A stretch of DNA of 64,000 nt from contig JAAOMT010000678.1 of NCBI GenBank assembly GCA_016748015.1, forward strand, positions 290,389 to 354,388, read 5' to 3'. The position numbers were made by a program, and so were the translations under genes. A model generated the notes under the pieces. It worked only from the letters and a program-made list of their open reading frames with translations, searched no databases and was not told the DNA's origin. The stretch is from Geosiphon pyriformis uo1 (Eukaryota; Fungi; Glomeromycota). Of the stretch, positions 3,001-60,500 are shown in pieces; the stretch's first letter is position 1; each line of letters opens with the position of its first letter.

Positions 3001-5167
3001 TATCCAAAAAAAGATGCCATTAAATTAGAACCATATTTATGCATATGTATTGATCTAAAAGTAGTACTGAAAATTCCAGCAACAACTATAATCCAATTAG
3101 TATTTAGATTTAGTTTAGCAAAAAAGAAAATCAATATTAGAGAAGGAATAATTAACACAGGATATGTAAAAAATATTATTACAATGCTACAAAATGACTC
3201 AAAAAAAGAATATAGTATTGAACCAAATGAAAAAATAGCACAGACAATATTTTTATCTCTGGTTCAGTTAATATTAGTAGAAAAAAAATAAAAATTAGGG
3301 ATGACAGCAAAAGAGATAAATGGATTTGAATTTATGAGTAGGATAGATATACTAGTTAATATGGCAGAGGAAGAAGTTATTAACAAGAAAAAAATTATTT
3401 CCACCCATCAATCAATTTTTATTCTGTCATATAACTAGTACATGTTAACCATAAAAAGGAAAATAAAGAATCAAGCTCAAATTTTTGAAGTAGAAACTAC
3501 AATTTATGAATCAGAAAAGATTGAATTTACCAATCTTTACATACCAGCCAAAAGCCTGAAACACATCAAAATTTCTATTTACAACATAACTGGAAACATT
3601 ATCAAAATACCAAAAAGAACTACCATAGGATATTTAAGCATTAAAATCAAAAAACAACTACCAAACACCATTCCAGATTTTTCACAACTGTGTGGATATA
3701 TAAACATCACATCACAAACAATATATGGATGAAAAGAATGTTATTTGCTTCAACCAGAACAATTAGAACAAATGAACTTAAAAAATCTAAATCTACTTCA
3801 AAGAATGCAGCTCAAGATATTACTCAACAATTTCACAGATATTTTTGCAAGTAAAAATAAATTTGGCAGAACTGATATCATTCAACATTAAATCTAAACT
3901 GGAGATGCAATATCAATCAAACAACAAGCATATTGAGTACCACCAGCCAGCCATGAGATAATCCAACAAGAAATCAATCAAATGTTAAACAATGGATTAA
4001 TTTAATTATCAATGAGTCTATGGTCATTATCAGTAGTACTAGTCCATAAAAAGAATAAAAAAATCCACTTTTGTGTGGATTACAGAAAGCTTAATAGTAT
4101 TACTTGTAAAGACAGTTATCTAACTTCACAAATCCAAAAATTATTTGATGCTTTTAAAGATTAAAAATAGTTCTTCACATTAGACTTAGATAGTAGTTAT
4201 TAACAAGTAGCAAATCCAGCCAACAAAAAAAAAACTGTATTCACTACCAAAAAAAGAAATTTTGAATTTAAAGTTATGTCATTCAGCTTAACCAATGCTT
4301 CAGCCATATTTCAATGGCTTATGAAAATTGTTTATACTAAAATGTTATGGAAATTAGTAGTTGTATATTTGGATAATACCAATGTGTTCTCAAGAACATT
4401 CAATGATTATTTGCATTATCTTCAACAAGTGTTCAAAAGATTAAGAAAAGCAGAATTGAAACTGAATACAACCAAGTGCTTTTTTAGCAAAATGAAATTA
4501 AAATTTTTAGCACATATTATGAGCAAAAATGATATTAAGACAGATCCAGATAAAATTGAGATAATAAAAAACTTTTCAGTATCAACAAACTTAATAGAAC
4601 TATGGACATTTTTGGGATTTATTAAATACTACTGCCACTTTATACAGAACTTCTCAAAAATAGCTCAACCACTTTACCAGTTTCAAGCCAAAAATGTGAA
4701 ATACAAATGGACTAAAGAGCAACAAAAAGCTTTTAACACTTTAAAAAGAAAGTTCATCCAAGTACCAGTATTGATTTATTCAAATTACAGCAAGTTATTT
4801 ATTATTATTATTGATACATTTAGTCAATTATTGGGAGCAGTATTATTACAGAGAGGACCAGATAGAAGAAAATATCCAGTAGTATACATCAGCCAAAGTT
4901 TAAGTCTAGCTAAAAAGAACTATAAAATACCAGCATTAGAACACTTAACTATCTATTGGGCAGTCATAAAATAAAAAAAATACTTAAGCCAGAAATTTTA
5001 TATCTATACTAATCACAAAGAATTGACATCAATCCAAAAACAAGAATTTGGAGATGACTGCTACACTAAATAAAAATAGAACTTTTACCATTTAAATATA
5101 CAGTACATTACAAAAAAGAAAAAAAAATAAAAATACTAATGATTTGTTGCAAATAAAACAAATCTAA
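1..5167 (+). pseudogene. gag-pol polyprotein (Gag, zinc knuckle, aspartic protease, Cys-rich domain, dUTPase, RT, RNase H), disrupted
   Basis: CHYCGKQEHI knuckle ~836-870; ILDNSLTDS (decayed LDSGSAGS) at 1501; dUTPase-like NTGFNLRYP/GIINTGY/KIAQ ~2975-3345; RT VVVYLDN in ORF 4276-4974; RNase H IIIDTFSQLLGAVLLQ; stop TAA 5165-5167. Confidence 0.9.
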
Positions 5168-5197
5168 AAACATTCCAGTCCAAAAATATAACAAAAA

Positions 5198-6580
5198 ATG
5201 GATACACAAAAATATTAACAACTCTAACACTATATTAATACCCAGCAGTTTAAGAAGAAATTATCTCCAAAGAAATGGAACAACATAAAACAACAATCCA
5301 AATATTTTATTACTTACCAAAATATATTATATTGAAAAAACAGAAAGAATTCAGATCAATCATTCAGAGTAATCACAGAATTAGAGAAAAACACAATACT
5401 ATACAACATATACTCAGATTTGACAACAGGACACTTTTATAAAAAAACAACCATGGAAAGAACCAGAAAAAAATATTATTGGTCATCAATGTATTCAGAC
5501 ATTATTTAGTATGTTCAAAATTGTGATGCTTGTCAAGGAAAAGGAGAAACAAGACCCAGTGAATCACTAAAACCAATTAAAGTGGAACAACCATTTAACA
5601 GAATTGGAATTAACTTAGTCAGACCATTAAAAATAACCAGTAGAAGCAATTATTATATAACAGTAGTCATAGATTATTTCACAAAATGGCCAGAGATGAA
5701 AGCAATTCAAAAAGCAAATGCAGAATCCATAGCTGAATTTGTTCACCAAAACCTGATTTGTTGACACAAATGCCCAAAAGAATTATTATCAGATTAAAAA
5801 ACACATTTTGTAAACAGAATATTGGCAAAATTAAGCCAAAAATTTGGAATCAAAAGATCATTATAATTATCATATCATCCATAAACAAATGATTTAGTGG
5901 AAAAGTTCAACAGAACATTGTATAAAACAATTGCCAAAATCAGTTAAAAAAACCAGAATAAATGAAATTTGTTTATACTATCAGTACTATTTGCTTATCA
6001 GACAATAAAGCAAAATATCACATAAGCAATACCATTTGAATTTGTTTATGATAGAACAGCAATATTACCAGTGGAGATAAAAGTCAATATGTATCTAATT
6101 GAACCAATAAATGAAACCAATTTCCAAAGAACATTGCTAAGAAGAATATACAAATTAATAGAAACATTAAAAAACAAAAAATGAAGAACAGCTGATAACA
6201 TTCAAAAGTTACAAGAAAAATAAAAAAAATGACATAATAACCAATTACCAGATAAACCAGTTGAATTTAAAATTAAAGACAAAATACTTTTATATCATAC
6301 CAAAATGAAAAAACAATGGGGTAAAAAATTTGATTCCAAATGGAATAAACCATTTTATATTTAAGAAATTCTAAGAAATAAAGCTTACAAATTAAGATGG
6401 GACAACAAAATCTTAGCCAAAGCAGCACATGGAGATTGATTGAAACTATATTATAATACAGTATCATTATATATCAGTAATATTCTATAATTAAGAGTAA
6501 AATGAATATTAGCCCAACCAGATGAAATTCTATAAGATTTGAAACCAATTATAATCATTGATTCAAACACATTAAATTAA
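5198..6580 (+). pseudogene. Retrotransposon integrase of copy A (own ATG), disrupted
   Basis: Starts MDTQKY; CDACQ zinc motif, RIGINLVRPL, DYFTKWPE, NDLVEKFNRTL core, GPF-like C-terminal region; no chromodomain seen. Confidence 0.88.
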
Positions 6581-28023: not shown

Positions 28024-28266
28024 AAAATTTTCCAAATAGGTTTGAATACTCAAAATACATTTACATTAGTTTTGTTTCAATGGATATGGTATGTAATTTG
28101 TAAAAACCCATACTGTGAAGTCTAGACTATTTATTCATAATGCATCTCATGAAATTTAAAATTTGAATCTCAGATTCAGAAACATAAAAGAACCTTATTA
28201 ATGTTGAATTGAATAGAAATAAAGAATTAAGTCTGATATTTGATTATATACTTACAAAATTAGTCT

Positions 28267-30422: not shown

Positions 30423-32922
<2,500 letters not shown>

Positions 32923-40161: not shown

Positions 40162-43100
40162 GTGATTTTGTGTGGAATATTGTAATGTGTAATGTTTGCA
40201 GTATCAATGTCCCTGCCAAGCAGAAGGATATTGTTCATTGGCATAGGGATTCTAGGAATTTGGTTTCAATCATTACGGAAACAAAGTTGAGATCTAGCAA
40301 TAGACCTTGAATTAGAGATAAGTTCAATAGAATTAGGGTTTTTTTATCTGGATTGAACAAAAAGTTTCTTGGTACTGGTGTTGCAATTATTATGAACACA
40401 TCTCTAGCTTATTATGTTTGTAAAGTTACTGAGGTATCTGGTCAGCTCCTATTAGTCAAGTTGCTATTCAAGAACAAACTTTCTGTGTCTATTTTGGGGT
40501 TTTATGCTGGGACATTTCTGGTTGTTCATTTCTCTCAGGCTAATGATATCACTTCTATGATTGCTAAGGCAGTTAATGAATCTTCATTTGTTGTTTTGGG
40601 TAATGACTTCAATAAAGATGGCTTTCGAAAGAGTGTTAGTTTTAGAAAGTGTTTGGATCTTGGTTTAGTCAATTCTTTGGGTGGAAGTTTTTATGTCAAA
40701 ATGCCCACATGGGCTAACTCTTAAGGCATGACTAAAACTATTGATTTTTTGTTCATTTCTTTAAATTTGGCTAATGCTGTGGTGAGTCACAATGTGTTTG
40801 ATGTTGAAAAATTTTTTGATACTGACCATCAGGCTGTGTCTGTGTCTATGGGGTTGGGTGAGCTTTTGGATGTGCAACTAAACTCTCTTCACAAGCAAGC
40901 AAATAGGGACCAATGAAAGTTTGATTTCAAGGGTACTGATGATGCTAAATAGAATAATTTTGAGAATGCTATGTTGGCAAATGCTGTGATGTTCTCAGAT
41001 GAGTTTACTGCCTCTGTTAAGTTCTTGGATTTAGATGCAATGTGGGATGTTGTTCATAAAGTTATGGTTCTCTTGGCTAATGAGGTGTTTAAAAAAAAAT
41101 AGTTTAAAGGCTTTGATGATGTTTTTACCAAGAAATCTTCAAAATATCACAAATTAGAGCTGTTGGTTTCTAAAATAGTTAAGATTTTGCATAAAAAGAG
41201 TGCTGTGAATTTTGAGTTTCTTATGAAGTGCTGGGTTTTTTTGGACAGTGTTGGAGCTTTAGCTGTTCAAAACATTGTGGATTTTGGTACAGGCTCTGGT
41301 CAGGTTTGTTTTGCTCTTTGTGGTATTAGAAAAGCTTATCACACATCCAAACTTGCTGAATTTTGTAGGGCTAAGAAGGCAACCATTAGAGCTGCTATAG
41401 ATAAAAGGATAGAGAGCTTTGAGATTAATAAGAGTCATACTATTAGGAGTGTGTTAGAGCACCTATTTCATAAAGTGGTACTTGACCATCTGGTTGTTGA
41501 TAATGAACTTGTCTTGAAACTTGATTTGGTTAAGTCTAAGGTTAATGTTATCATGAAAGATTGAACTAGAAAGTGTCAAGTGGTTGATGATGTCTCTAGT
41601 GATTGGTGTTGTCAATATCAACCTTTGGAGTATGTTTTTGATGAAGCTTTTTCAGGTGTTATGTGTTTTATTGAGTTTGATAAACTGTTTGAAGTGGTTT
41701 TTTCTTTGTCTAATGATAAAGCTGTTAGTCTTTTGGGTATATTGAATGAGTTTTAGAAACATTGTGATAAAGCAGTCTTAAATATGCTTTTGGTGTTTTT
41801 GAATTTCTGTTTGTCTGATGAATCTGTACCTAGCTCTTGGAAAGAGACTTGGGTCTCAATAATTCCCAAACCATATAAATGGGAGGGTGTTTTTACGAAT
41901 ACTTGACCTATTGCTTTGATTAAGACAGCTCGTAAAATTCTCTTCAAGATTCTCTCAAATGGAATTTCATTGGCATGCAGCACTTTTGATGTTCTTTGTG
42001 GGGACAATTTTTCTGTTTTGAAAGATATATTAATTTAGTCTCCCATTTTTGCAATTGGTTCAGTTATTAAGAATGCTTTGGAGAAGAATTAGAAGCTTTA
42101 GTTGGTTTTACAAGATATGAGAAAGGCATATGATTCAGTTGGTTGGAAGCATCTTGAAAAAAATTTAACCAGGATTAAGATGTATAGCAAGTTTATTTGT
42201 TTTTTTGACAGTATTTATAAAAATTGCACCAATTGTGTTATGACAGATTTTGGTTTGATGAGTGGCTATTGGGTACATGATGATCTGGACCAGGGAGAAA
42301 TCTTTTCCCTTCTACTGTGATGCATATTCTATGACTCTTTGTTATGTGAAATCAAGTGTCAAGAGAGTGTGTGTGGGTATAGGTTGAATTCTTATTTTAT
42401 TTCCAAAAATAGTTGTGCTGAATCCTGGGCTGAACTTTCTTTTTTTTTTACTGCTGGCACTTTCGTTGATGATACAATTTGGGTTGATAGCAGTCAAAAT
42501 GCCACTTAACATATTCTTGATGTTGTTAATAAATTTTTTCAGATAAATGACATTTCTATAAATAATAACAAGACAGTGACCATTCCCATTAATAGTAAGA
42601 TTGGCAATCTGTCTCTTTCTATCAGTGGCTCGCCAATCTCTATTGCCAAAAAAAGTGAATCTCATTAGTATTTGGGTATTTTTCTTTCAACTAAGGGTCT
42701 TTCAAAGCCTAGTTTAGCTAAGGCAAATTCAAATGTTTGTTTTTTCACTAATCTGGTTCTGTGGAAGACTGTCTCAGATAAACAGCTCTTGTATTTGGTT
42801 TTGGCAGTTCTCCATCCTATAGTTAGCTATAGAACACAGTTTAGCTTTGTTCCTGTTGGAGTGTGTAACAAGTGAGATGCTCTTATTTGTAAGGGCTTGA
42901 AGCTTAAATCCAGTTTACCACTTGATTTTTCCAATGATACAATTCACTATTCTTCTTTTTATGGTTTGAAATCTTTCTTTCAGATTTAGTTTGAAAATAA
43001 GATTGCCTCTTTTGTTAGTTTTGCGAACTCTGGTGGTGTTGTGGATTGCTTATTTTCTCATAGGTTTCATGACCTGCAAGTTTTGTGTTGGCACCCTGTT

Positions 43101-44845
43101 CATCCATTAAGTTCTCTTGTTTATATTCATATTAGTGCTTCTAATAATTTCTTGGTAGGCATGGTTTGTGTTCTTCTTGACTGCAACTTATTTCTGAACA
43201 GTTTTTTGGCCACTTCCTTTCAATTCTGCAGTGGGGTTCCAATGTCTACTGTTTTGGGTGAGTCAAAGTTTCTCAGGTTTTTCCCTTCTCTTTGGCAGCA
43301 TGGTATTGCCTTTGTTAACCAACTTCATGATCATCATAGTGCTGTGTTTAATTGGTATACCTTCAAGTGTTGGAAAAAATTGGACCCTCATGGCTCTGTT
43401 TCTGAGTGGTTCAAGCTTTTTGTTACATTTCTTAATGGTATGGACTCCTCTTCTACTCTCTCCCTGTTTTTGCATGGTGTTAGTTCTTTGAACATTCTTG
43501 AATCTAGCAACTTTGTTTCTGTTTGTGATCATTTCTTACAAGCTGGTGCCAGCAGCTTGTCAGTATACACAGATGGGTCCCTTAGTAATTTGGGCACAGC
43601 CAGCTGTAAAGCTGGTGCTGCTGCATATTTTGAGGACATTGGTTTGGGTTTGGGTGTTTGTGTATTGGGTTTGATGTTATCTACTTTGGGGAAGTTGCAG
43701 GCTATTGCACTGGTTCTTGAGTGTGTTTTCCCATCAAGCTCTGTTCTATTTTTTTGGATAGTCAATCTGCTTTAGATACTTGTAAATTGGAATTGAGTCT
43801 GGCATGTTCTGACTTTTGTAATCAATATTGGGTCAAGTGTCATCATATAGTCAATGTTATTTGCAATAAGAATTTGGAGATCAGCTAGCATAAAGTGAAG
43901 GGTCACTCTGGTGTCTCGGGTAATGAATGTGCTAATGTGATTGCTGGTGCTGCTTCTCTCTCTAATTGGCACTTTTCTTTCCACCTGGATGAACACTTCT
44001 TGATTGCCAATGGTGGGATTGTTTCTGGCAATTCCAGATATTTTGTTCATGATATTTATCATTCAGTTTACCGTGTGCACTGAGAGGTTGGGTCTGGTTC
44101 TAAGTTTTTGGCTAGTTGTTTGCTCTTAAAGATTGATTGGCTTTACTTGTCATTGGTGTGACATTCTAACTCACATATGACTGCTGGTTTTACCAGCAAA
44201 CTTTCGGCTGACACACACATTTATTTCATAAAAGCTTTGTACCACTGACTGCTGGTTGCTGTTTAGAAGTGTCTTTATAGTAGGCTGTATCCTAGTGTGT
44301 TGTGCTTATATTGTGATAAGGTAGAGGTGTCAGATCATGTGTTTTCTTGTAAGGTTGATGAATCTGCTTAGCAGTATTTATTGGAATTTCATATAAGCTC
44401 TTGGAAGGCAGTTTCTGGTTTCTCTCATTTCTCTTTGGGTGTACTGCAGCTGTTGTTTTTCTGTGTTTCTGATCCTTTTGTGTCCACAGCTCTTTATAAA
44501 GATTTTGTTTTTGATGGCTGGTTTTGTAAGGCTGTCTTTATCTTCCGCGATTCCAAGATTGCTAGTTTAAAAGTTGTCAAATTTGTGCATTCTCTTGGTC
44601 TTGCTTTTAGGGCTGATATTTGGTCAGTTTATGCTAAGCATCATACTTACATGAAGAAGAATAAGTTGATTCTACTTGATGGTTTAACTCATATCTTGGT
44701 CTCTGGTTTGGCTTCAAGATTTTCTGCTGGTGTGATCAAGTTGCTTGGCATTGCTGATGGTTTTGGTATTTGTTTTGGCTTTCGCAAATCCAGTTTGTTT
44801 TTTTCTGGTTTAAGTGATCTAGTTTTGGTTTATATAGCTGCATAG
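40158..44845 (+). pseudogene. LINE ORF2 (APE endonuclease, RT, RNase H, zinc finger)
   Basis: WNIVMCNV, ITETKL, LGNDFN, TIDF, TDH (EN); LQDMRKAYDSV, QGEIFS, FVDD (RT); VYTDGS, KVKGHSGVSGNE (RNH); CLYC..DHVFSC; nearly all in one frame with nonsense mutations. Confidence 0.92.
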
Positions 44846-44958
44846 TATTGTTCTAATTGGCCTGAGTGACTGGTTATGTGTAGAAAGTGCATAATTTACA
44901 CTTAGTTTAGATTATTTCTTTGATATATAATATTAGGTTGTGTTTGAATCTTACTCAT

Positions 44959-45950
44959 TGTTACCAGTAAAATTTTAGCTATCAATTAGCATGAAATTAT
45001 CCTTATAATTTCTATAAATTAATTAGTATATTAATATCATTTCAAATTATTACTTATTATTTAATCAATTATCACATATCACAATTCAATTAAATAATCC
45101 AATTAGTATAACAGAAAGTAGGATGATCAAATTACACAATACCCTGAACTTTGTAACATTCTAAAATTTGCCGAAATTTACAGAAATTTGCCGAAATTTA
45201 TAGAAATTTGTCGAAATTATGAATAGTTTATCCAAATTAATCAATAGTTCAGCAAAATAACTTGTAGTTTATCAAAATGTATCTTTAGTTCGCCAAAATT
45301 TGAGCAAAAAGAAAAAGTGCAAGTCCATAGACTAGTACTACAACAAGTTGTATAAAAGAAGAGCTTTTCTCTTCAAGAAAATGTATCTTACTTTAGATTT
45401 ATCACTTAGAACCATTCCTATACACAAAAAAAAGAAATAAATATCAAATAATTCAAAAAACCAAATTCTTTAATTATTGCACTTGGAAAATCCCCAAAAC
45501 CCAATTAACATTTTGAAATTGATTAGCTACCAATTTCAGTAAACTGTTAATGACTTCAGGCCTGGATAGAAAACGTTTTTTTTAACAGAATTCAATTTTT
45601 TTTACATTTTTTTTACATTTTTTTTATTTTCTTATTATAATCATTAGGATAGCCTACAGACAAAATTCCTGTAGAAGAGTTGACTTTTACAGCAAAGTAA
45701 CTACACATTTTTAGTGAGCTTTCAGACAAGCAATTCTTGGAAAAGAGTTGACGTTTACTACAACATAACTACATAAAGTAACTGGCAAGAAATTGGCCAT
45801 TCCACTTATAAGCCTAGCAGTTCAAATTATAGGAGATAATTGGAAGATAAATTCAGTTACTGGAGGTTCAACTACTTCTAAAAAACGTGAATTTGCAACC
45901 AACAGACATTTAAAACATTCAAGAAAAGAGACCAAAAACCTCTGGTAATA
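44959..45950 (+). repeat. 5' LTR of element D
   Basis: TGTTACC...GGTAATA; direct repeat of 53432-54444. Confidence 0.95.
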
Positions 45951-45952
45951 TT

Positions 45953-45964
45953 TGGTGCTCTCTC
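45953..45964 (+). other. Primer binding site (TGGTGCTCTCTC)
   Basis: TGG begins 2 nt after the 5' LTR end, complementary to tRNA CCA; primer tRNA not identified. Confidence 0.75.
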
Positions 45965-45995
45965 ATAGAAATAATACAGCAACAACAAATTCAAA

Positions 45996-48900
45996 GTGGC
46001 AACCACACCAGACACAACAACTCTAGAGTATCATCAGTCAATTTACACCCACTGCAAGCAAAGATTCAACATCCCAGACGGAATTGAAGTTGTCAAGAAA
46101 TCAGTATACCAATATATTAAAAATTGCATCAACAATTATTTTTTTGGAAACTACAACATTTCAGAAGTTAGAAGCAACCTCTACAATAATTTAGTGCACT
46201 ATTCACAATTGAGAACAGAAGACCTGAACAGTGAAACACTTGCTACCTACTTCCAAGAACTTAATTTTAATATTATTGAGTATTGTGAAGAAAAATACCC
46301 AGTACAGCCCAAATATTCTTTTAACTTTGAATCAGAAATAGAGACAAAGAACAAAGGCAAACAAAAAGTGAAACAATACTTAAGAACCACTTCAAACACT
46401 CCAATACTACCAAAGACAATTGTCAAACACTTGCAAATACCTGAACAAGGAACCAGTGTCAAATTACCACTTTTTATTACACCATTTCCAATTTTACTTG
46501 TTCAACCACAAACACCAAGTTCACTACTTAACTGTTTCTCCAGATCAGAAGATTTTCAGTCACCTAAAAATTCTACTCAACAACAAGAACCAATATTAAC
46601 AAGTGCCAATATCATTGATTACTTACAGGAAAACGAAAATAATCATTCAGAAAGCTTGGAAAGTAAAGAAACTAAATTAGAACTAGAAGAAATCACAGGA
46701 AATGTAGAAGAAATAACAACTGCTTACATTGCAAAAATTCCAGAATTCACTAGTAAAGACAATGATACCAGTCCTCAAGAATGGCTTGACAAAGTTCAAA
46801 AAGCAGGAGATGCAAATAGTTGGATTGCAGCAAGAATGCTCAAAGCAATTCCTTACTTTCTCCAAGAAACAGCAGAAGAATGGTTTGAAAATTTAGAAGA
46901 ACTATTTGAGAACTGGTAAGCATTCAAAGATGCTTTCTTACAACAATTCACTGACAACAACACCTCTATTACTCTCCACAATTGCTTTCACAATATCAAA
47001 CAAAAAACATCTGAAACTGTTATGACCTATCTTGGAAGATTCAACAAACTTCTTTGACGGATTTGACAATTGGAAACCAATGATTACTATTCTGATGCCC
47101 AGATTTTGAATCAGTTTATAGCAGGATTAAAGAACAAATTAATCAAGAAAGTTTGCCCACATGCTCCAGCAGATTTAGCAACTGCCATTAGACATGCAAA
47201 GAGCTATGAAATGGCAATGGAAGAAGCAAATCACACCAAACTTGTAAACCTTGCAATTGGAGAAACCAGCTCAGCAGCTGAAGAAAAGATAGACCAACTC
47301 ACAAAAAAAGTTGAAAGCTACTTTACAAACCAACAACAACAACAGCAACAACCACAAAGATACCAACCTCCACAACACAACCAAAACAATTTTGGATCAT
47401 CATCTAACAACCATCTCAAAATTGTTATTATTGTGGAATTCCAGGACACTGGAAACGAGATTGCAGGAAATTGCAAAGAGACCAACAAAATAGAAGTAAT
47501 TAACGTTATTTTTCACCACAACAATCTTATTACCAACCTCCACCACCAACTTATTATTCACCAAGACCCCAAAATCAAAACAATTACTATCAACCAGCTT
47601 CACAACCAATGCAGCAACAATATCAGCAATCTTTACCAATTCAGCAATATTAGACACAACACACTTAACAATATCAAGTACTAGCCAGAAAATTGGTTCA
47701 ACATAACCAATTCACACCTCAAAATCAATTTCAGAATAACAACAATAGAATCAACCCAAATAACCAATTAGTTCCCCGAAATTCTGGTCAGCAAAGACCA
47801 AATTACTTTCACACTCAACCCAGTTATTTAACAATGACTGAAGAATCGAATTTTCAACAAACTGCACTTTCTGAAGATAAAGCTGCAGTACCAAGAACAA
47901 ATCTTTCCAACTATACCATTCCACCAGCTCAAATTGCTCAAAATGCCAACCTCTTAAATATATTCCCATTCGAATTTGAAGCAAATGAATCACCATTCTT
48001 GCTTAGTAATGCAACAGCTAATGAACAAAAAGCCATTACTGCCATGTACACTAAAGCTACAGTTGAAAGAAAACCCATTTGATTAATTTTAGACAGTGGA
48101 TCAGCTGGAAGTATTATCACTTACCAGTTAATGCAACAGCTTCAAAAAACTGTTAACAGACTAGCCCAAACTGTAATTGTTACAGCAGATGGTATGAAGA
48201 AGACACCAGTAGGAGAAATTGACAATTTTCTATTTACCATTGATGAAATCACCATTCCAGTCAAAGTGCTAGTCATGGATGCATCCCAATACCAAGCTCT
48301 GGTCGGAAATGATTGGCTTCTTAAAGCCAATGCAAACTTAGATTGGGAAACTCAAGAACTAAAAATCTCATACCAAGAACAATACACTATAGTACTTGCT
48401 ACTTGTGGTACTTTTAACAAACAATCAGAAAAAACCCCAGTATTTGAATTTAAAGAGAAGAAAAAAATGCCACTCACTGAAACCTACATGGCACTTGAAT
48501 CAACATCCAATTGGGCTAAGGAAACAAAATAAGAGATTTTTGAAAAATCAAGAGAATGGAAAAAAGTTAGATATTCTATACCAGAATGATAGAAACAACC
48601 ACCCTATATTCCACTCAAATGCAAAGATTGCAACAAGAAACTTTTATCAATAGGAGCATGTATTTCTCCAGAAGAGAAATATGAAACTCGTACCTGTTAC
48701 TTTTGCAAAGCATGCCATAGAGAACGATTTGGATCTCCAAAAAGAAGTGGAAAATGGGAAAACACACTTTGTCTTACATGTGGAGATATGTTACCAGAAG
48801 AATGCAACTGGATTGATGTTGCAATGAGAGGAGAAGTATGTGATCAAACCTGTCAATATGCTCTATCAATTTCGAAAAAAGTCAGAAGAGGAACATCATT

Positions 48901-51601
48901 TGATGCAGCATACAACAGTACTTTCAATAAATTTTACCACTACCCTTATAATGCTGAAATGATTTTTGACCTAGCAATGACATTGATCAATGAAGCCACT
49001 CAAGAAGATGTCTGCCAAATGAAAGAAGCTAAATATATTGAGTATACTATAAAATTAGCTGGATTTGATTATGAAGATGAAGTAGAAACCTACCACCAAA
49101 TTGCAAGCCACACATATCCAACTCAAGAAGCTCAAATTCAACAATTAGAGCAAATGAACATTCAATTGTGTGAAGAATGCATCATGCCTTGTGATGACAA
49201 ATGGTGTCCAGAATTCTATGCTCTTAGCATTCCCCTGCCAAAAAAAAATGATGAAAATGAAATTAAATTTGGAGTATCTGAACTGGTAGAAGAACTACCA
49301 ACCACTCTCATCTATTTTCTTGAAAAGCAACTACCTCTACAACTTAAATATTTTGACAACCATGGCCAAGGAATCAGACCAGAAAATGTACACGAAATTG
49401 ATGCTGGATATGACTTAAGATACCCAAGAAAAGATACTTTAGTTCTCCAACCAAAGTCTTTGACAAAAATCAATCTCAAAATCACTCTTGAAATTCCATC
49501 TGGAGTAATGATTCAAATTGCATTTAGATCATTATTGGCAAGCAAAAAAATCAATGTTAAAGGAGGAGTTATAAATGCAAGATATACTGGAGACATTACC
49601 ATCATGTTATAAAATGAAACAGACAAATCATTCAGGATTGAACATGCTGAGAAAATTGCCCAAGCAATTTACCTATCTCTAATCAACATTTTGGGATTAC
49701 AATTAGTTAAAAACAGAGAACAATTGAGAAAAAGTGAAAAAGGAACTCAAGGTTTTGGTTTAACTGGAAGATTTACAGTTCCAGTAAACATAGGTCTTAA
49801 TATACAAGATGAATCTCACCAGATTTTTCAACTTCCACAACCAATTACCATTTCACTTTTTGGAGAACATCACGAAATTTACATTTGCTCAAAACTCACT
49901 ACTACTCAACAAATCTTTGAATCCAATGAACAAATTTGTTTGAAGCATGAAATATCAATTCCAAACATTTATATTCCCAAAGGAATGAAAAAATTTCGAG
50001 TTATATTCTATAACTCCAATAATTATCCTATTGTCTTATTGAACAAACTAGAAATTGGAATCATACACAGTAACATTTTTTAAGATGAAAATCCTCAAAT
50101 TGTCTCTAATTTCATCGAAATTATAAGACATACACTACTTCCAAATCCAAACATTATTTCTACCACTGAAAACTACCACCTTTTGAAAGAAAAACTTTCT
50201 TGAATTAACATGGATCCCTTAGAACCTCAACAACAAAAACAATTGAAACAATTGATAGCTGAATTTGCAGATATATTTGCAAAAGACAACAATGACCTGG
50301 GAAAAACAGATATTGTTCAACATTAGATCCATATAGGAGATGCTCCACCAAACCATCAACAAGCTTATTAAGTGTCACTTGCCAGCCACCAATTCATTAG
50401 AAAAGAGGTCCAAAAAATGCTCAATAACGGATTGATTCAACCAACAAGAAGTCCTTAGGCCTCACCAGTAGTTTTAGTTAAAAAAAAAATGGAAAAATCA
50501 GATTCTGTGTTGATTATAGACAACTGAATAGTGTTACAATTGGAAATGTCTACTCTCTTCCAAGAATTGATGACATGCTAAATGCTCTAGGAAAAGCCAA
50601 GTTCTTCTCAACTTTAGACCTGGAAAGTGGATACTGGCAAGTCGAAATGGACCCAAAAGATAGATCCAAAACAGCATTTACTACTCAAGAAGGGAACTAT
50701 GAATTCAATGTTATGCCTTTTGGACTCTGCAACATTTCAACAACTCATGGATGTTGTATATGAAGGACTCTTGTGGCAATCAGTAGTTGTCTATCTTGAT
50801 GATACTAATGTATACTCACCAAGCTTTGAAGCCCATCTCATTCACCTGTGAGAAGTTTTTCAACAATTACAAAAAGCAGGATTAAAGTTAAATATTGAGA
50901 AATGTCACTTTGGAAAAACAAGCTTGATCTTTCTTGGACACATAGTTAGTAAAGATGGAGTCAAACCAAATCCAGGAACAATCAGTGCTATCAAAAACTT
51001 TTAAACCCCCAGAAATACCACAGAACTACGAGGATTTGTAGGATTAGCCTTTTACTATCAAAAATTCATAAAAAGATTTTCAGAAATTGCCAAACCACTC
51101 AATTATCTTACTAACAAAAACGTGCCATACAAATAGACTGAAAAACAACAAAAAGCTTTTGAAACTCTCAAAACAAAATTGACAACAGCCCCAATTCTTG
51201 CTTATCCAGACTTTAACAAACAGTTCCAACTAGCCACTAATGTTTCACATATAGCTTTTGGTGCCATTCTATTACAATTGGATAAAAATGGCCAGGAACA
51301 AGTTATTGCCTATGCTAGTAGAACACTTAAGCCAACAGAACTCAAATATGGCTCAACTGAATTAGAAGCTGCTGCAGTCATCTGGACTCTTAAACATTTT
51401 TAACAATATCTGAAGAATGAAAAAGAATTTAACATAATAATTGACAATATTGGTTTCAAATGGCTTAATAAAAAGAAAACTGAACAAAATGCCAAACAGT
51501 TTCGATAGAATGACTTCCTAGCAGACTACAGATACATTGTATATTACAAACCAGGAAAACTACACACCAATGTTGATAGCCTCTCAAAAATGACAGATTA
51601 A
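45996..51601 (+). pseudogene. gag-pol of element D (capsid, knuckle, protease, Cys-rich domain, dUTPase, RT, RNase H)
   Basis: IAKIPEF..PQEWL capsid; CYYCGIPGHWKRDC 47423-47464; ILDSGSAGS ~48086; DAGYDL...GFGLTG 49400-49768; LDLESGYWQ, YLDD 50792-50803; RNase H LATNVS..GAIL; stop 51599-51601. Confidence 0.93.
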
Positions 51602-51658
51602 CATCAACAACAATTCCACCATAACTTACCAACTTACCAACAAAATAACTAAACAACA

Positions 51659-52614
51659 ATGGATCCCAGAAACTACAGCAATCTTAAAAACTATTTGGAT
51701 GCCAGAGAATTGGTCTCCAAGTAAAAAACATTGTTTACAACACCAATCAAAGCAATATTTCATACATCACAACAAAATCTATTATAAAAATCACAAAAAC
51801 CTCAAACCAACCACTCAGATTAGTACAAAAGAATGAAAAAGAAACAATTTTATATAACATGTACACAGATCTGACTTCAGCACACTTGGGAAAAGATGGA
51901 ACAATTCAAAGAACTCTTGAACATTATTTTTGGCCTCAAATGCAAAAAGACATTCAATAATATGTAAAATCTTGTGATAGTTGTCAAAGAAAAAAAGAAA
52001 CTCGCTCCACAGAACCTTTAAATCCAATCAAAGTTGGACAACTTTTTAACAGAGTTGGAATTGATTTAGTCGGGCCATTACTTATCACAATTCAAGAAAA
52101 TTGCTATATTGCAGTAGCAGTAGATTATCTTATCAAATGGTCTGAAGCTAGCGCCATCCAAAGAGCAGATGCAAAATCAGTAGCAAATTTCATCTATGAA
52201 GACATTATTTGTAGACATGGATGTCCAATTGAACTTTTATCTGATCAAGGAACACATTTTGTGAACAGTTCAATGTCAAAAGACTTCTATCATCACCTTA
52301 TTACCCTCAAACAAATGGACTTGTAGAACGTTTCAACAAAACATTGTGTGAATCTTTAGCCAAAGTCTCAACAGATTTTGAGCAGGAATGGGATATTTTT
52401 ATTCCATTAGTGTTACTAGCATACAGAACACTAAAACAAGATACTATTAAAAGTTGTACATGGAGATAGATTGAAACACTATTATTCCAGAAACAATTCT
52501 GAACCATTAATTCCACAAATTGGTACACATTCCCCTTTAATTAATCCTGAAGATATTTCCCAAAATTTAGAACCAATAATTATAATAGAACAACAACCAA
52601 ACTTGAACACTTAA
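51659..52614 (+). pseudogene. Integrase of element D (own ATG; internal deletions)
   Basis: MDPRNYSNLKNYL; CDSCQ; VGIDLVGPL; LSDQGTHF; NGLVERFN; C-terminal region partly deleted near 52452. Confidence 0.9.
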
Positions 52615-52743: not shown

Positions 52744-53397
52744 ATGATTATTCCCCGAAATATTCAACAAATATCTCAAAAGTTAATGTTAGCCTTGAAA
52801 ACACTTCCTGACTTATTCATAACAATTAATAGAAGTCAAATTAATTACATTCAGAAAGAAACCACAGCCCCAGTAGTAAATCATCCACAGAAATATCAAC
52901 CCTATAAAAGAAAAACAAGAAGTTACTTTGAAAATAGATTACCAAGACTTTTGAAGCAAGCACTGAAAGAAAATTTTTTAATTGCCCCTATTGATATTTC
53001 ACTGAATGCTACAATGCAACAAAAACTTTTACTACTTTTCAATGAACAGAACAATGAACACACTCTTATCTATAAATACTTTCATATTAGAAAGACACTT
53101 TATGAACGAAAACTGGAATTTGAAGCAACAAATCTCACTCCTGAAGCTATACAAAAACAAATTCACAATGAATTTAAAACAGCAGCTGGACCAACAAACA
53201 CTCGCTACAAACTTAGACCAGCTTTTAGACTTTATGATTTGTTTAATACTTGTGAAAATGTTCTACAAAATCTAATACTGCAATCAATGAAAGTCCAATA
53301 CATTGGCAAACTCACAGAACTGAAATTTCAACAATTTTCAGACCAGATTACTTCAATTATTTTGGATCACTATCTCAATATCACAGATAGTGTTTAG
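52744..53397 (+). CDS. Accessory ORF3 of element D, 217 aa, open, unknown function
   Basis: Open ORF with ACCATG start between integrase and PPT; homologous to decayed ORF3s of family 1; no signal peptide or TM segment seen. Confidence 0.75.
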   Translation: MIIPRNIQQISQKLMLALKTLPDLFITINRSQINYIQKETTAPVVNHPQKYQPYKRKTRSYFENRLPRLLKQALKENFLIAPIDISLNATMQQKLLLLFNEQNNEHTLIYKYFHIRKTLYERKLEFEATNLTPEAIQKQIHNEFKTAAGPTNTRYKLRPAFRLYDLFNTCENVLQNLILQSMKVQYIGKLTELKFQQFSDQITSIILDHYLNITDSV

Positions 53398-53418: not shown

Positions 53419-53428
53419 AAGGAGAAGA
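53419..53428 (+). other. Polypurine tract of element D
   Basis: AAGGAGAAGA 3 nt before the 3' LTR. Confidence 0.8.
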
Positions 53429-53431
53429 TTA

Positions 53432-54444
53432 TATTACCAGTAGAATTTTAGCTATCAATTAGCATGAAATTATCCTTATAATTTCTATAAATTAATTAGT
53501 ATATTAATATCATTTCAAATTATCACTTATTATTTAATCAATTATCACATATCACAATTCAATTAAATAATCCAATTAGTATGACAGAAAGTAGGATGAT
53601 CAAATTACACAATACCCTGAACTTTGTAACATTCTAAAATTCGCCGAAATTTACAGAAATTCGCTGAAATTTATAAAAAATTTGTCGAAATTTATAGAAA
53701 TTCGTCGAAATTATGAATAGTTCACCCAAATTAATCAATAGTTCAGCAAAATAACTTGTAGTTTATCAAAATGTATCTTTAGTTTGCCAAAATTTGAGCA
53801 AAAAGAAAAAGTGCAAGTCTATAGACTAGTACTACAACAAGTTGTATAAAAGAAGAGCTTTTCTCTTCAAAAAAATGTATCTTACTTTAGATTTATCACT
53901 TAGAACCATTCCTATACACAAAAAAAAGAAATAAATATCAAATAATTCAAAAAACCAAATTCTTTAATTATTGCACTTGGAAAATTCCCAAAACCCAATT
54001 AACATTTTGAAATTGATTAGCTACCAATTTCAGTAAACTGTTAGTGACTTCAGGCCTAGATAGAAAACGTTTTTCTTAACAGAATTCAATTTTTTTTACA
54101 TTTTTTTTACATTTTTTTTATTTTCTTATTATAATCATTAGGGTAGCCTACAGACAAAATTCCTGTAGAAGAGTTGACTTTTACAGCAAAGTAACTACAC
54201 ATTTTTAGTGAGCTTCCAGACAAGCAATTTCTGGGAAAGAGTTGATGTTTACTACAACATAACTACATAAAGTAACTGGCAAGGAATTGGCCATTCTACT
54301 TATAAGCCCAGCAGTTCAAATTATAGGAGATAATTGAAAGATAAATTCAGTTACTGGAAGTTCAACTACTTCTAGAAAACGTGAATTTGCAACCAACAGA
54401 CATCTACAACATTCAAAAAAAGAGACCAAAAACCTCTGATAACA
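53432..54444 (+). repeat. 3' LTR of element D
   Basis: TATTACC...GATAACA; direct repeat of 44959-45950 with one extra ~20-bp U3 unit. Confidence 0.95.
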
Positions 54445-54614
54445 TTGTTAAATGAAAAAAAAAATTAAAACCAGATTAATAATTATAAAATCTTTAAATA
54501 TAATTAATTTAAATATTAATAATAATATAATAATTTTTTTTTCAAAGTTAATAAAAATATAAAAGTTAAAAATTATATATTTAAATATTAATTTATTAGC
54601 AATTAATAATAAAT

Positions 54615-56417
54615 TTTTATTTTATTTTATCAAGAATTAACAAATAAGGCCCAACTACTACCTAAAACTATAGAACAAAATTGTCTCTATATTAAGTATG
54701 ACTCATATGTTCTCTATACATGACTAGCCATTTAAGCCAATTAAGACAACACTAAGTACTAAAACTATTAACTACAGAAATATTCTATAAAAAACCAAAA
54801 CTAGGATTGAATAAATGAGAATATAAACCAAAGCAAACATGAATACCTAATCTGATACCAAAATCAAAAATTACACTATGGGACCAAATAAAAAATAAGC
54901 CAACCACAGACAGTATTTCAGATTCATTACATGGCAGAAGACTATGTTTCTTATAATATGACCTTAACTTGGTAGTTGGCAATTATATGGCAGACCTGTG
55001 ACCTTCGGTAAAATCTTAAACCAACTTAATAATAAAATCAGCACTATTGAAACCATCACTTATAAGCCACTTCACATTAACCACTCATGTCTTCAATACA
55101 AAGTCTTTAGCAAGTGCCATATACAGTCTATCTGAAAATCTAGCCTTATGCAAGGATTGGACCACCATATTGTTAACAGTTTCCACACCCAGCATCTCAA
55201 CTTATATATTAACAGTTGTCAGAATTAACTCCTCTCTAGCACCAGTATTGTGAGCACAAGAGAATATATAATCAGAATTTTTGACCAGTTTGTATTGAAT
55301 ACACATTATGCTAGGATAACTCAGATTGTATTAACACTTCTTTTTGGCCATAGGCAAATGGTAATGAAAAGCTTTTATGAAGTAGAAGTAAAATAAAGCA
55401 GAGACAAAGCTGGTAAAACCAGCACAAAATCTGCCATCAAGATATTATACATGAAATGTTCTGTTCATATTGAATGAGTTGTGTAGTATATCATTCACAG
55501 CACCAAATACACACTTGGAATTCCAACCAACAAAATTAACAGCATCAAAAAGATGCCTAACAAAATAATAAGCATTCCTGGACACAGGCCTGTCTTCGAC
55601 AGAGAGAAAGTGACAAGACATATTAATTGGCAATATAAGATCAAAATCTGTAACAGTATTAGCCAAAAAGTCAGCATGCTCATTGCCCATGATACCAGAG
55701 TGGCCCTTAATCTTATTCCAGCAAACCAACAAATTTTTAGATTTAATGATTTTATAAACATGTTTTTTCTCTATCCAACATCTATCACAAAAATCTAGAT
55801 ACATTCTGCTTTCAAATAACAAACACATATCTAATAATGCCTGACTATCCATGAACAAATTAACAGAGCTAAAAGCCGAAATGCATTCTAATACAAGAGT
55901 GATAACATGTATTTCCACCAAAGTTGAGGAAAGCAGGCTGTATATCTTAATACTAACACCAGCATCAATGTCTGGGAAGTATGCAGCAGCATCATTACAA
56001 GCACCCACAGTACCCAAGCCCTTAATTAAACCATCTGTATAAATGACCACACTATTAGAATCACACTTCAAAAGACAGTTACCAACTAACTCAAAATTGT
56101 CCAAACAACAGCTAGGAGCAAAATTAGGAGTAAGAGGGTGGCTATCAATCAAATTGTCATCCCCAATAAACTTGACTAAAAGACTAAACCAACTAAAAAC
56201 TGGTCCTCTGGGGTCCAACCTCTTCTATTTGTGGAAACCACTCCATGTAAAACATGTAACCTGATAATCCAAAAGTTGATGCACAAAAATGATACCAAAC
56301 TTTTTTAAAGCACTTACAACACCCAAATAGCACTCCAAACCTAACACATTAACAACAGTAATACCAACACCAACTCGAAAAATGTTTGGCAGATTGTTGT
56401 CCAATGAAAGTCTACAT
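54615..56417 (-). mobile_element. LINE 3' fragment (RNase H, zinc finger, tail) on minus strand
   Basis: ORF 55445-56218 with VIYTDGLIKGLG and KIKGHSGIMGNEHAD; conserved tail (reverse complement) ~54630-54755. Confidence 0.9.
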
Positions 56418-56719
56418 TATTATTGGAGATTTTTGGTCTCTTTTCTTGAATATTATTAATGTTAATTTGCTGTAAATTCATGTTCTCAAGAAGTAGTTGA
56501 ACTTCCAGTAACTGAATTTATCTTCAAATTATCTTTTATAATTTGAATTATTGGGCTTATAAGTAGAATGGCCAATTTTGTGCCAGTTATTTTGTATAGT
56601 TACATTGTAGTAAATGTTAACTTTTTTCCAGAAATTGCTCATTTAGAAGCTTATTAAAAATGTGTAGTTACTTTGTTGTGAAAGTCAACTTTTCTACAGG
56701 AATCTCATCTATAGACTAC
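56418..56719 (-). repeat. 3' ~300 bp of a family-2 LTR, inserted in the LINE and interrupted by copy C
   Basis: Reverse complement of ~45650-45950. Confidence 0.88.
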
Positions 56720-57532: not shown

Positions 57533-60500
57533 TTATTCTCTCTTTTTAATATTAAGCTCTGTTGAGATCTTCTATTCTAATTCTCCATTTTTGAGTATTT
57601 TTTGAACTTCTTTTTTGAGAATTACTTGTACTATCTTGTCTTGTAATTCTTCAAATTGAGCATTGGTTATTTTTTCCATTTGGTTAATGGTAATGGAGTT
57701 CATAACTGAATTGAGTAAGATTTCTGGTCGATCTTGAAATCTGATGTGTAGCCAATAAATAGCTCTTGCTTGTGTGATCAAATTGTTCTTCCTCACAAAT
57801 TGTTTCAGTTGTTATAGTATTGTTGTATCAAATAATTGTTTCATTTTATCTATGTATAAGCCCTAAATGTTCAAATATTGTCCCAAATAAAAGTAACAAA
57901 AGTTTCTTGGAAATTGTTGTATCTACCAATTCCAAGTTTCTATAGTCAACTCTTAATATTGGATGACTTTTGGTTGTTTTTCTATTGCCAATTTTACTTT
58001 TGTAATTATTTTGTTAACAGTGTTTTCTGTTTTTCTCCATATTTTATCTTGTGGTCTTTTTTTGGTGTTTGTGTATCTGATAGTTTGTTGGTTGATTGTA
58101 ATTTCTACTTCTTGTTGTTGGATCAGTTGAAAGAGTTGTTGTGTTAGTGAGTAAATACTGTTAGTAATCTCCATTTTCTGCTGTCTTTTGTCATGTATAC
58201 TGTGTTTTTATATACTCTTTGGTTGTTTAATTTTATATGTTTGGTTCAATGATTATAATTGGTTCTAGATCTTATGGAATTTCATCTGGTTTAATTAATA
58301 TTTTCTGTACTCTTAATTGTAGAATATTACTGGTAGATAATGGTGCTATATGGTGATATTGTTTCAGTCGATTATCATGTGCTGCTTTGGTTAAGATTTT
58401 GTTGTTTAACCTTAATTTATAAGCTCTATTTTTAAGAATTTCTTCTATGTGAAATAGTCCATCCCATTTGGGGTCAAATTTTCTACTTTATTGTTTTTCT
58501 GCTTTAGTATGATGTACTTTGTTTCCAATTTTGAATTCAACTGGTTTCTCTGGTAGTTGGTTATTATGTCTTTTTTTTTGTTTTTTTTGTGACTTCTGAA
58601 TGTTATCAGCTGCTTTTTACCATGTGTTTTCTAATGTCTCTATTAAGTTATATGTTCTTCTTAACAATGTTCTTTGAAAATTTTCTTCTGTTATTGGTTT
58701 TGTTTAATATGTCTTGACTTCTATCTCAACTGGTAATGTTGTTGTTCTATTATATACTAATTCAAATAGTGTTGCTTGTGTAGTGTTTTGCTTCATTGTC
58801 TGATAAGCAAATAATACTGATGGTATAATCAAGTCTCATTCATTCTGGTTTTTTTGGCTAATTTTGGCAATGGCTTTACACAATGTTCTGTTAAATCTTT
58901 CAACTAGCCCATTTGTTTGTAGATGGTATAGTGATAATAATGGTCTTTTTATTCCAAATTTTTGACTTAATTCTGCCAATGTTCTATTCACAAAGTAAGT
59001 TTCTTAATTTGATAGTAGTTTTTTTGGACATCTATGTCAACAGATCAAATCTTGATAAACAAATTCGGCAACAGATTCTGTATCTGCTTTTTGAATGGCT
59101 TTTGCTTCTGGCCATTTTGTGAGATAATCCATGGTTACTGCAATATATTTGTTGCCTCTGCTGGTAATTGTTAATGGTCTGACTAAGTCAATTCTGATAC
59201 AATTGAATAGTTGTCTTACTTTGATTGGTCTTAATGGCTTATTGGGTTTTGTTCCATCTTTTTTTTGACAAACATCACAATTTTGAACATATTGAATAAT
59301 GTCTGAATACATTGATGGCCAATAGTATCTTTTTCTAGTTTTTTCTATGGTTGCTTCTTTGTGAAAATGTCTTGTTGTTGGGTCTGAGTGCATGTTAAAT
59401 AATATTGTCTCTTTCTCTGGTTCTGTAATTACTCTGGTTGGTTGACCTGGATTCTTTCTGTTTTTCTAGTAAAGTATATTCTGGTGATTGATAAAATATT
59501 TTGATTGTTGTTTTGTTCTTTTTGAGATAATTTCTCCTTGAACAATTGAGTATTTATATAATATTGAAGTTGTTAGTATTTTTGTATATTCATGTTTTGT
59601 TATATTTTTGGGTTGAAATGTTTTTAAATTTGTTTTATTTGTGACAATCCATTGGCATTTCCATTGTTTTTTCCCTTTTTATAATGTACCATATAATTGA
59701 ATGATGAAAGTTCTATTTTTTATCTGGTATGGCAATTATCTCCGAATTTTTGTTTCTGGATTGAAGTCAATTTTTTGTAATCAGTGTACACATCAAACTT
59801 TTGACTTAAGTATTCTTTCTATTTGATAACAGCCTAATAGATAGTTAAGTGTTCCAATGCTGAAGTTCTATAGTTTTTTTCAGCTGGACTTAAGCTTCTA
59901 CTAACATAAGCTACTAGATGTTCTTATCTGTCCAGTTCTTTCTGAGATAATACTGCTTTCAATGCTTGACCAAATGCATCAGTTGTGATTATGAATGGCT
60001 TGCTATGATCCAGATAGATTAGTACTGGAGCTTAAATAAGCTTTCTTCTTAATGTATCAAAAGCTTCTTGCTGAATTTCTGTCCATTCATATTTAGTGTT
60101 TTTTGTTTGGAGTTGGTGTAATGGTTGAGCTATTTTGGAAAAGTTCTTGATAAAGTGGCAGTAGTATCCAGCAAATCCCAAGAATGCTCTCAATTCTGTG
60201 AAATTATTTGGTACTGGAAAGTTTTTGACAATCTCAATCTTGTTTGGATCTGTTTGATTCCATCTTTGCTTACCATATGTCCCAAAAACTTTAACTTTGT
60301 TTTGCTAAAAAAACACTTGGTCACATTTAATTTCAATTTTACTCTTTTCAACCTTTCAAACACTTGTTGGAGATAATATAGATGGTCATCAAATGTCTTA
60401 AAGAACACATTGGTGTTATCTAAGTAAACAACTACTGATTTCCACAGTAATCCAGTATAGACAATTTCCATAAGCTGTTGGAATGTTGCTGGAGCATTCA

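What the first reader, a model, noticed from the sequence alone, without database searches (positions are those of the whole stretch)
51540..51700. Gypsy integrase apparently encoded as a separate cistron behind a conserved TAA-N6-ATG junction
Seen: in all three copies covering this junction, pol stops right after RNase H. An A/C-rich, nearly G-free spacer follows, with a second in-frame TAA exactly 6 nt before an ATG that opens integrase (MDPRNY, MDTQKY, MNIQKY). D: TAA 51599, TAA 51650, ATG 51659 (57-nt spacer). A: TAA 5165, TAA 5189, ATG 5198 (30 nt). C (minus): 59626, 59602, 59593 (30 nt). Established: Ty3/Gypsy integrase is normally cleaved from Gag-Pol and packaged through that fusion. 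Inference: these are ancestral stops, making a tricistronic element (gag-PR-dUT-RT-RH / IN / ORF3) that needs reinitiation or a subgenomic RNA and another way to package IN. Caveat: the spacer is in frame and CAA-to-TAA decay is common here, but two stops with the same spacing in two divergent families argue against chance.
Basis: partly seen in the sequence, partly recalled or inferred. Interest (0 to 1): 0.82.

Follow-up and report, generated by a model that had tools for sequence, protein, structure and literature searches.

The report
Fungal retrotransposons with separate integrase gene
These decayed jumping genes of a mycorrhiza-type fungus belong to a large lineage in which the integrase is its own gene behind a real stop codon instead of the tail of the usual polyprotein, so it is likely made by ribosomes restarting after that stop and would need a new way into the particle; the proposed 'TAA-six bases-ATG' signal is not conserved.

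Summary
The first stop is ancestral. In 40 of 40 related loci that hold both the RNase H end and the integrase start, Pol stops before an integrase ORF with its own conserved Met. Spacing runs from -20 to +727 nt in all three frames. Of 18 largely intact elements, 15 have integrase out of frame. The second stop is not a signal: in family D it is CAA in 94% of sister-copy depth, and only 3 of 40 relatives have TAA at -9. A conserved ORF3 follows integrase. Stop/start overlaps (13 of 40) and inserted ORFs that keep the overlap favour termination-reinitiation on the genomic RNA (about 0.55); a subgenomic RNA or internal initiation remains open. A subclade carries a covarying 40-nt RNA structure just 5' of the integrase AUG, absent from the window. 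One fused relative nests inside the clade. The host is Geosiphon-like. I found no description in ten paper searches. The scan had found this split before on other DNA (4 notes). No RNA evidence was available.

The parts
44959..45950 (+). 5' LTR of element D (TG start; terminal CA read as TA)
   Evidence: 94.8% identical to the 3' LTR
45953..45970 (+). PBS-like site starting TGG; primer tRNA not identified
   Evidence: sequence
45975..51601 (+). decayed gag-protease-dUTPase-RT-RNase H reading frame of D (internal stops and frameshifts)
   Evidence: Pfam Retrotrans_gag, Asp_protease, dUTPase, RVT_1, RT_RNaseH
51599..51601 (+). Pol stop of D, ancestral
51602..51658 (+). 57-nt G-free A/C-rich spacer; its TAA at 51650 is CAA in 94% of sister-copy depth
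51659..52614 (+). separate integrase ORF of D, decayed (stops, frameshifts, internal deletion)
   Evidence: Integrase_H2C2 and rve; start matches the M[DEN]xxx[YL] start of 102 of 120 homologues; extent
52744..53397 (+). ORF3 of D; homology runs on across the PPT to 53439
   Evidence: tblastn with ORF3 of L006, E=9e-17; ORF3-family HMM E=2e-4
53419..53428 (+). polypurine tract
   Evidence: sequence
53432..54444 (+). 3' LTR of D
5165..5200 (+). copy A junction: Pol TAA 5165, 30-nt spacer with TAA 5189, integrase ATG 5198
5198..6451 (+). integrase ORF of copy A, decayed
   Evidence: tblastn
59591..59626 (-). copy C junction: Pol TAA 59626, 30-nt spacer with TAA 59602, integrase ATG 59593
58317..59593 (-). 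integrase ORF of copy C, decayed

Best explanation
These are dead copies of a Ty3/Gypsy-derived LTR retrotransposon lineage whose gag-pol frame ends at a real stop after RNase H and whose integrase is a separate gene with its own start codon, likely translated from the same genomic RNA by ribosomes that restart after terminating, and likely packaged by binding the RNA or RT rather than by fusion. Shown: the split layout, the conserved integrase Met, a third conserved ORF, variable frame and spacing, and AUG-poor spacers. Inferred: that the full-length RNA is the message, that reinitiation makes integrase at low ratio to Gag-Pol, and that the window's short unstructured A/C-rich spacers let the terminated small subunit reach the AUG. 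Inferred and untested: packaging in cis through RNA or RT/Gag contact, or loading on the cDNA after uncoating. The split itself I put at about 0.95; the confidence given is for the reinitiation mechanism.
For: 40 of 40 scorable loci (of 80 fetched) are split; phases 0/+1/+2 = 10/19/11, and 7/8/7 over 22 clusters at 70% identity. 18 of 40 have at least 400 open Pol codons and an integrase ORF of at least 380 aa, 15 of these out of frame; L015 has a 1621-codon gag-pol ORF, a stop, then a 424-aa integrase. 102 of the 120 best near-length homologues begin M[DEN]xxx[YL]. Purine at -3 in 60 of 67 and G at +4 in 53 of 67 starts. For coupling: 13 of 40 have stop/start overlaps (ATGA, TAATG, ATGnnTAA and longer) and 17 of 40 lie within 30 nt. 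Where an extra ORF sits before integrase its stop again overlaps the integrase ATG (L049 -4, with its own start also at -4; L054 -8; L038 -4, only 44 codons). The integrase-ORF3 junction shows the same overlaps in L016 and L030. ATG is depleted in 23 spacers of 20-170 nt: 9 seen, 20.9 expected, P=0.0014, near-duplicates included. Stop/start overlap reinitiation after long ORFs is known in caliciviruses, CHV1 and the retrotransposon SART1 (PMC10275272, passages).
Against: No RNA or ribosome data were seen. 23 of 40 gaps exceed 30 nt, including D (57 nt), whereas TURBS-type reinitiation falls off beyond about 30 nt. L071 (727 nt, 12 ATGs) and L025 (365 nt; a 67-codon ORF ends 103 nt before the ATG) do not fit simple coupling. 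A TURBS-like TGGGA (motif recalled) lies before the stop in only 4 of 40. AUG depletion and a good start context also fit the leader of a subgenomic RNA. Overlaps can arise passively when the Pol frame runs into the A-rich integrase start. One continuous RT-RH-IN protein (P0125) nests inside the clade, so the split is not obligatory.
Confidence: 0.55

Rival explanations
1. Integrase is a separate gene but is made from its own subgenomic RNA, from an internal promoter in RNase H or the spacer, or by processing of the full-length RNA.
For: Long gaps with several ATGs (L025, L054, L071) and T-rich spacers of 60-100 nt. Good start context and AUG depletion fit a 5' leader. Foamy viruses make Pol apart from Gag from a spliced RNA (PMC3705302, passages).
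Against: Overlapping and chained stop/start junctions are not needed under this model. Six spacers of 24-82 nt contain no AG, so no splice acceptor lies in them.
Confidence: 0.25
2. Integrase is made by internal ribosome entry or another structure-driven start on the genomic RNA, independent of Pol termination.
For: 23 of 80 loci carry a covarying RNA structure ending mostly 2-11 nt before the integrase ATG: 97% of cells paired, 7 of 12 pairs with two-sided changes.
Against: The motif is absent from the window and from the overlap-type junctions; the window's spacers fold to no structure. The motif could equally serve reinitiation, repression or packaging.
Confidence: 0.12
3. Integrase is still made as a fusion, by readthrough, frameshift or splicing across the stop.
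For: The window's junctions are in frame; L002, L006 and L067 have a single in-frame stop; two database gene models join RT-RH to integrase.
Against: Frames are spread over all three phases. L002's near-twin L066 differs by one spacer base (63 versus 64 nt). In 24 of 40 the integrase frame is closed at or after the Pol stop; a slippery heptamer is in 1 of the other 16; a donor-like site lies before the stop in 3 of 40. The two gene models delete the RNase H end and the integrase start, as predicted-intron joins would.
Confidence: 0.06
4. The stops are decay (CAA to TAA) in dead copies of an ordinary Gypsy element.
For: The copies are heavily decayed: 5-15 stops per coding segment of about 190-880 codons in most segments, CpG observed/expected 0.03-0.18 against 0.85 in the gene region. 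True for D's second TAA.
Against: Intact relatives with 400-1600 open codons stop at the same place and mostly change frame; sister contigs keep the first stop.
Confidence: 0.02

Closest known systems
Ty3/Gypsy LTR retrotransposons (Metaviridae), e.g. yeast Ty3
   Same: LTRs, PBS-like site, PPT, domain order gag-PR-RT-RH-IN, H2C2-rve integrase. dUTPase between PR and RT is known from fungal and rotifer elements (PMC6431247, passages).
   Different: Integrase is described as the last domain of the pol ORF (PMC3248453, PMC4974528, passages); here it is a separate ORF, followed by a conserved small ORF3 with no family or fold match.
Termination-reinitiation in caliciviruses, influenza B, hypovirus CHV1 and the non-LTR retrotransposon SART1
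   Same: Stop/start overlaps such as AUGA and UAAUG after a long ORF (PMC10275272, passages; CHV1 abstract).
   Different: Here in an LTR element and for integrase; many gaps exceed 30 nt; no TURBS-like motif; function untested.
Foamy virus Pol
   Same: An enzyme made apart from Gag and packaged through RNA contacts (PMC3705302, passages).
   Different: Foamy viruses separate all of Pol by splicing and package only the uncleaved PR-RT-IN precursor; here RT stays on Gag and integrase alone is separate.
Ginger1 DNA transposons
   Same: Stand-alone Gypsy-like integrase of about 400 aa (PMC2836005, passages).
   Different: Ginger1 has terminal inverted repeats and no RT; these integrases lie inside LTR elements behind RT-RH. 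RT-less animal relatives branch apart in the integrase tree.

Membership tests
Ty3/Gypsy (Metaviridae) | Direct LTRs with TG...CA ends | tested here: met
   D: 44959-45950 and 53432-54444, 94.8% identical; one end base pair of each decayed
Ty3/Gypsy (Metaviridae) | PBS and PPT | tested here: inconclusive
   PPT present; TGG-led PBS-like site present, primer tRNA not identified
Ty3/Gypsy (Metaviridae) | Domain order gag-PR-RT-RH-IN | tested here: met
Ty3/Gypsy (Metaviridae) | RT and integrase related to those of Gypsy elements | tested here: met
   nearest fused relatives are Gypsy-type polyproteins at 31-42% integrase identity; trees
Ty3/Gypsy (Metaviridae) | Integrase encoded within the Pol polyprotein | tested here: not met
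   0 of 40 loci continuous. So it is filed as a Gypsy-derived variant, not a canonical member
Ty3/Gypsy (Metaviridae) | Placement among named clades (GyDB/Repbase references) | not testable with these tools
   no reference set on hand
Chromoviruses | Chromodomain at the integrase C-terminus | tested here: not met
   none in the window integrases or in the precomputed domains of the 120 near-length hits
Ginger1 DNA transposons | Terminal inverted repeats, no RT | tested here: not met
   RT-RH upstream in all 40 scored loci, LTRs in D; loci too short to show RT were not classed
TURBS-type termination-reinitiation | Stop and start within about 30 nt | tested here: inconclusive
   17 of 40 relatives and copies A and C (30 nt) yes; D (57 nt) and 23 of 40 no
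TURBS-type termination-reinitiation | 18S-complementary motif upstream of the stop | tested here: not met
   TGGGA (recalled motif) in 4 of 40 within 100 nt
TURBS-type termination-reinitiation | Downstream translation depends on upstream termination | not testable with these tools
   needs a reporter assay
env-bearing Gypsy elements (errantiviruses) | ORF3 is an envelope glycoprotein | tested here: inconclusive
   ORF3 family is about 140 aa and predicted all-helical; no family or fold match; env is not suggested, but a missing match excludes nothing

The most novel reading that the evidence does not exclude
A large, long-lived clade of LTR retrotransposons in Glomeromycotina runs as a polycistronic, operon-like RNA (gag-pol / optional cargo ORFs / integrase / ORF3) chained by stop-start coupling, delivers integrase without polyprotein fusion, and in one subclade uses an undescribed 40-nt structured RNA beside the integrase AUG as a fungal reinitiation or internal-entry signal.
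Probability: 0.4. Interest if true: 0.85.

Novelty: new variant of a known kind. Interest (0 to 1): 0.7.

Why it matters
LTR retroelements are taken to deliver integrase into the particle as part of Pol. A successful clade that has dropped this shows the fusion is dispensable. It gives a natural system to ask how integrase dosage is set and how integrase finds its cDNA. It offers dozens of natural stop/start junctions and a compact candidate RNA element for polycistronic translation in fungi. It also means that annotation of mycorrhizal fungal genomes will misread these elements as broken, as stand-alone integrases, or as intron-joined genes.

Tried and rejected
No whole genome was held, so family-wide counts rest on contigs of one DNA run; the two other runs laid nothing. 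No RNA holder was listed, which is no evidence on expression. The viral contig scan gave one distant, fused locus (L081). Rfam: no match at E<=1 on 10 loci, 6 of which carry the RNA motif. The motif model found nothing in the window. A 2-bp pseudoknot in the motif is compatible with the alignment but rests on one one-sided change; RNAalifold prefers another pairing. ORF3: Pfam nothing below E=0.013; atlas hits unnamed or with low shared-feature counts, including a translation-repressor cluster at 0.93, a lead only; Foldseek nothing at E<=0.001; VIA-align best Z 4.7, rmsd 3.3 over 69 residues. No ORF3 match was found in copies A and C. The RT-RH trees leave the split elements as an unresolved polytomy. 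The first integrase tree held a mistranslated outgroup row, so it and its AU test are set aside; it was redone. Rejected: TAA-N6-ATG as a signal; decay as the source of the first stop; frameshift, readthrough or splicing as the general route; Ginger identity. No complex was predicted.

Full report
Observation. Element D is a full-length, decayed LTR element: LTRs at 44959-45950 and 53432-54444 (94.8% identical), a PBS-like site, gag, protease, dUTPase, RT, RNase H, integrase, ORF3 and a PPT. Copies A and C are one family (76% over 4.1 kb) and 64-69% identical to D. All copies carry many stops, and CpG is nearly gone from them (observed/expected 0.03-0.18 against 0.85 in the gene region), so the window alone cannot separate ancestral stops from decay. 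A host gene in the window matches a Geosiphon pyriformis protein at 98%, the next hits being Ambispora and Rhizophagus. LTR elements cover 41% of that genome (PMC11952901, passages).

Sister copies. No assembly was held, so I laid contigs of one DNA run on two junctions. In family D, position 51650 reads C in 72,482 of 77,167 depth units (46 contigs), so the second TAA is a decayed CAA. The first stop is kept in the loose-end line of 28 contigs (agreement 0.78). No T-to-C row for 51599 was among the 40 rows shown; 98 rows were not shown. In family A/C no variant of 8% or more is listed at either TAA or the ATG, and a loose-end line of 10 contigs ends RNase H in the same column as family D. That table also lists nothing at the TAA in integrase codon 7, which A and C share and which I cannot explain, so missing rows are weak evidence. 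Five backward joints in the same call read as spacer duplications of 31, 31, 32, 32 and 63 nt (my inference).

Relatives. The 120 best near-length integrase homologues (of 599) are 359-438 aa; 102 begin M[DEN]xxx[YL] and the other 18 begin at a Met further in. The few named ones are Rhizophagus. That search excludes fused forms, so I fetched DNA by integrase patterns, which does not select for or against fusion: 80 metagenome loci. Forty hold both the RNase H end and the integrase start; the other 40 are too short or lack one side. For 6 of the 40 I set the ATG by hand, and for L031 the Pol stop. All 40 are split. Gaps: 13 overlaps (-1 to -20), 4 of 0-30 nt, 17 of 31-100 nt, 6 longer. Phases are 10/19/11, and 7/8/7 over 22 clusters at 70% identity. 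Eighteen have at least 400 open Pol codons and at least 380 aa of integrase; 15 of these are out of frame. TAA at -9 occurs in 3 of 40. The window's families group with L006 in the integrase tree (SH-aLRT 99). L006 has a TAA and a 24-nt G-free A/C spacer. In the RT tree L024, with an ATGA overlap, joins them (93).

Fused forms. A search for longer proteins gave 1013 hits, 120 listed. Only three reach 48% identity or more, all fungal gene models. Two join RT-RH to integrase but lack the RNase H end and the integrase start; the third has no RT domain. The rest are at 42% or less. One of them, P0125, is a continuous RT-RH-IN protein that nests among the split elements (98). With it the split elements form one clade in the integrase tree (SH-aLRT 95, two changes of state). 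I read this as one origin and one re-fusion. The loci were picked by integrase similarity, and the RT-RH trees are unresolved, so a single origin is not shown.

Mechanism. Fusion by recoding is unlikely as the general route: frames vary, the integrase frame is closed at or after the Pol stop in 24 of 40, a slippery heptamer is in 1 of the other 16, and a donor-like site precedes the stop in 3 of 40. True initiation is suggested by the conserved Met with a purine at -3 in 60 of 67 and G at +4 in 53 of 67, and by ATG depletion in spacers (9 against 20.9, P=0.0014). Coupling to termination is suggested by the overlaps and by inserted ORFs that again end on the integrase ATG (L049, L054, L038); L025 and L071 do not fit. 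Such overlaps drive reinitiation after long ORFs in viruses and in SART1, with TURBS-type cases needing under about 30 nt (PMC10275272, passages). Many gaps here are longer and the TURBS-like motif is rare (4 of 40). I therefore put reinitiation at 0.55, a subgenomic RNA at 0.25 and internal entry at 0.12. Packaging is wholly inferred; foamy virus Pol shows that RNA-mediated packaging without Gag fusion can work (PMC3705302, passages).

A structured RNA in one subclade. Twenty-three of 80 loci (22 strong, L020 partial) carry a motif of about 40 nt that ends mostly 2-11 nt before the integrase ATG (34 nt in L032). In 19 aligned copies 97.4% of cells pair and 7 of 12 pairs show two-sided changes, above shuffled and slid controls; the structure was derived from these same sequences. 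It has no Rfam match and is absent from the window.

ORF3. An ORF of at least 100 aa starts within about 270 nt of the integrase stop in 23 of 38 loci with enough flank. Eighteen match one profile at E<1e-8, 16 of them by construction. D's ORF3 is homologous to that of L006 (E=9e-17) and weakly to the profile. A family member folds confidently as an all-helical domain (pLDDT 94) of unknown function.

Literature. Ten full-text searches gave no description of a Gypsy-type lineage with a separate integrase ORF. I read passages of 10.64898/2026.05.21.726589, PMC6431247, PMC11952901, 10.1101/2021.03.30.436303, PMC10275272, PMC13468544, PMC3248453, PMC3705302, PMC4974528, PMC11943222 and PMC2836005, and parts 1-2 of 5 of PMC12440569 (Troyka, mostly single Gag-Pol). 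No supplements were read. Repbase, GyDB and subscription journals were not searchable and could hold an earlier mention. The scan's own notes report the same split in this genome and two others; they are not independent support, and my reading was recorded before I saw them.

Verdict. The separate integrase gene is real and clade-wide; the TAA-N6-ATG signal is not. New variant of a known kind, interest 0.7.

Noticed in passing
L015:5193-5229, L029:4464-4500 and 21 more loci: Conserved, covarying 40-nt RNA structure just 5' of the integrase ATG; no Rfam match; not in the window.
   Followed up: partly
window 44955-44958 and 54445-54448: The 4-bp flanks of element D read TCAT and TTGT, which would be one CpG-centred target duplication decayed on opposite strands (inferred).
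   Followed up: partly
window 5216-5218 (+) and 59573-59575 (-): Copies A and C share a TAA at integrase codon 7, and no sense variant of 8% or more was listed in sister contigs. Either a blind spot of the table or a family that spread with a dead integrase.
   Followed up: partly
L015:4348-5166, L029, L031, L032, L042, L045: Pol carries a 235-340 aa acidic and Cys/His-rich extension after RNase H with no Pfam match; it goes with the RNA motif in most of these loci (not L045).
   Followed up: no
L055:2357-3016; L049:521-1237; L044:1945-2889; L011:6546-6944: Cargo in relatives: a nucleotide-kinase-like extension and a restriction-endonuclease-like ORF (both by eye, untested), a NUDIX ORF3 and an HTH ORF3 (Pfam).
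   Followed up: no
window 56418-56718: The end of element C shares 82% identity over 301 nt with the 3' part of D's LTR, although their coding regions are only about 65% identical.
   Followed up: no
window 8207-9816: A second copy of the integrase 3' half and downstream region lies in tandem behind copy A (82% identity).
   Followed up: no
window 38266-44845 (+) and 55445-56224 (-): Decayed LINE-like elements with RNase H-like motifs flank element D (by eye, untested).
   Followed up: no
window 17450-32730: Host genes: an auxilin-like UBA/TPR protein, a gene with ARID and PHD domains, and ATP sulfurylase/APS kinase.
   Followed up: partly
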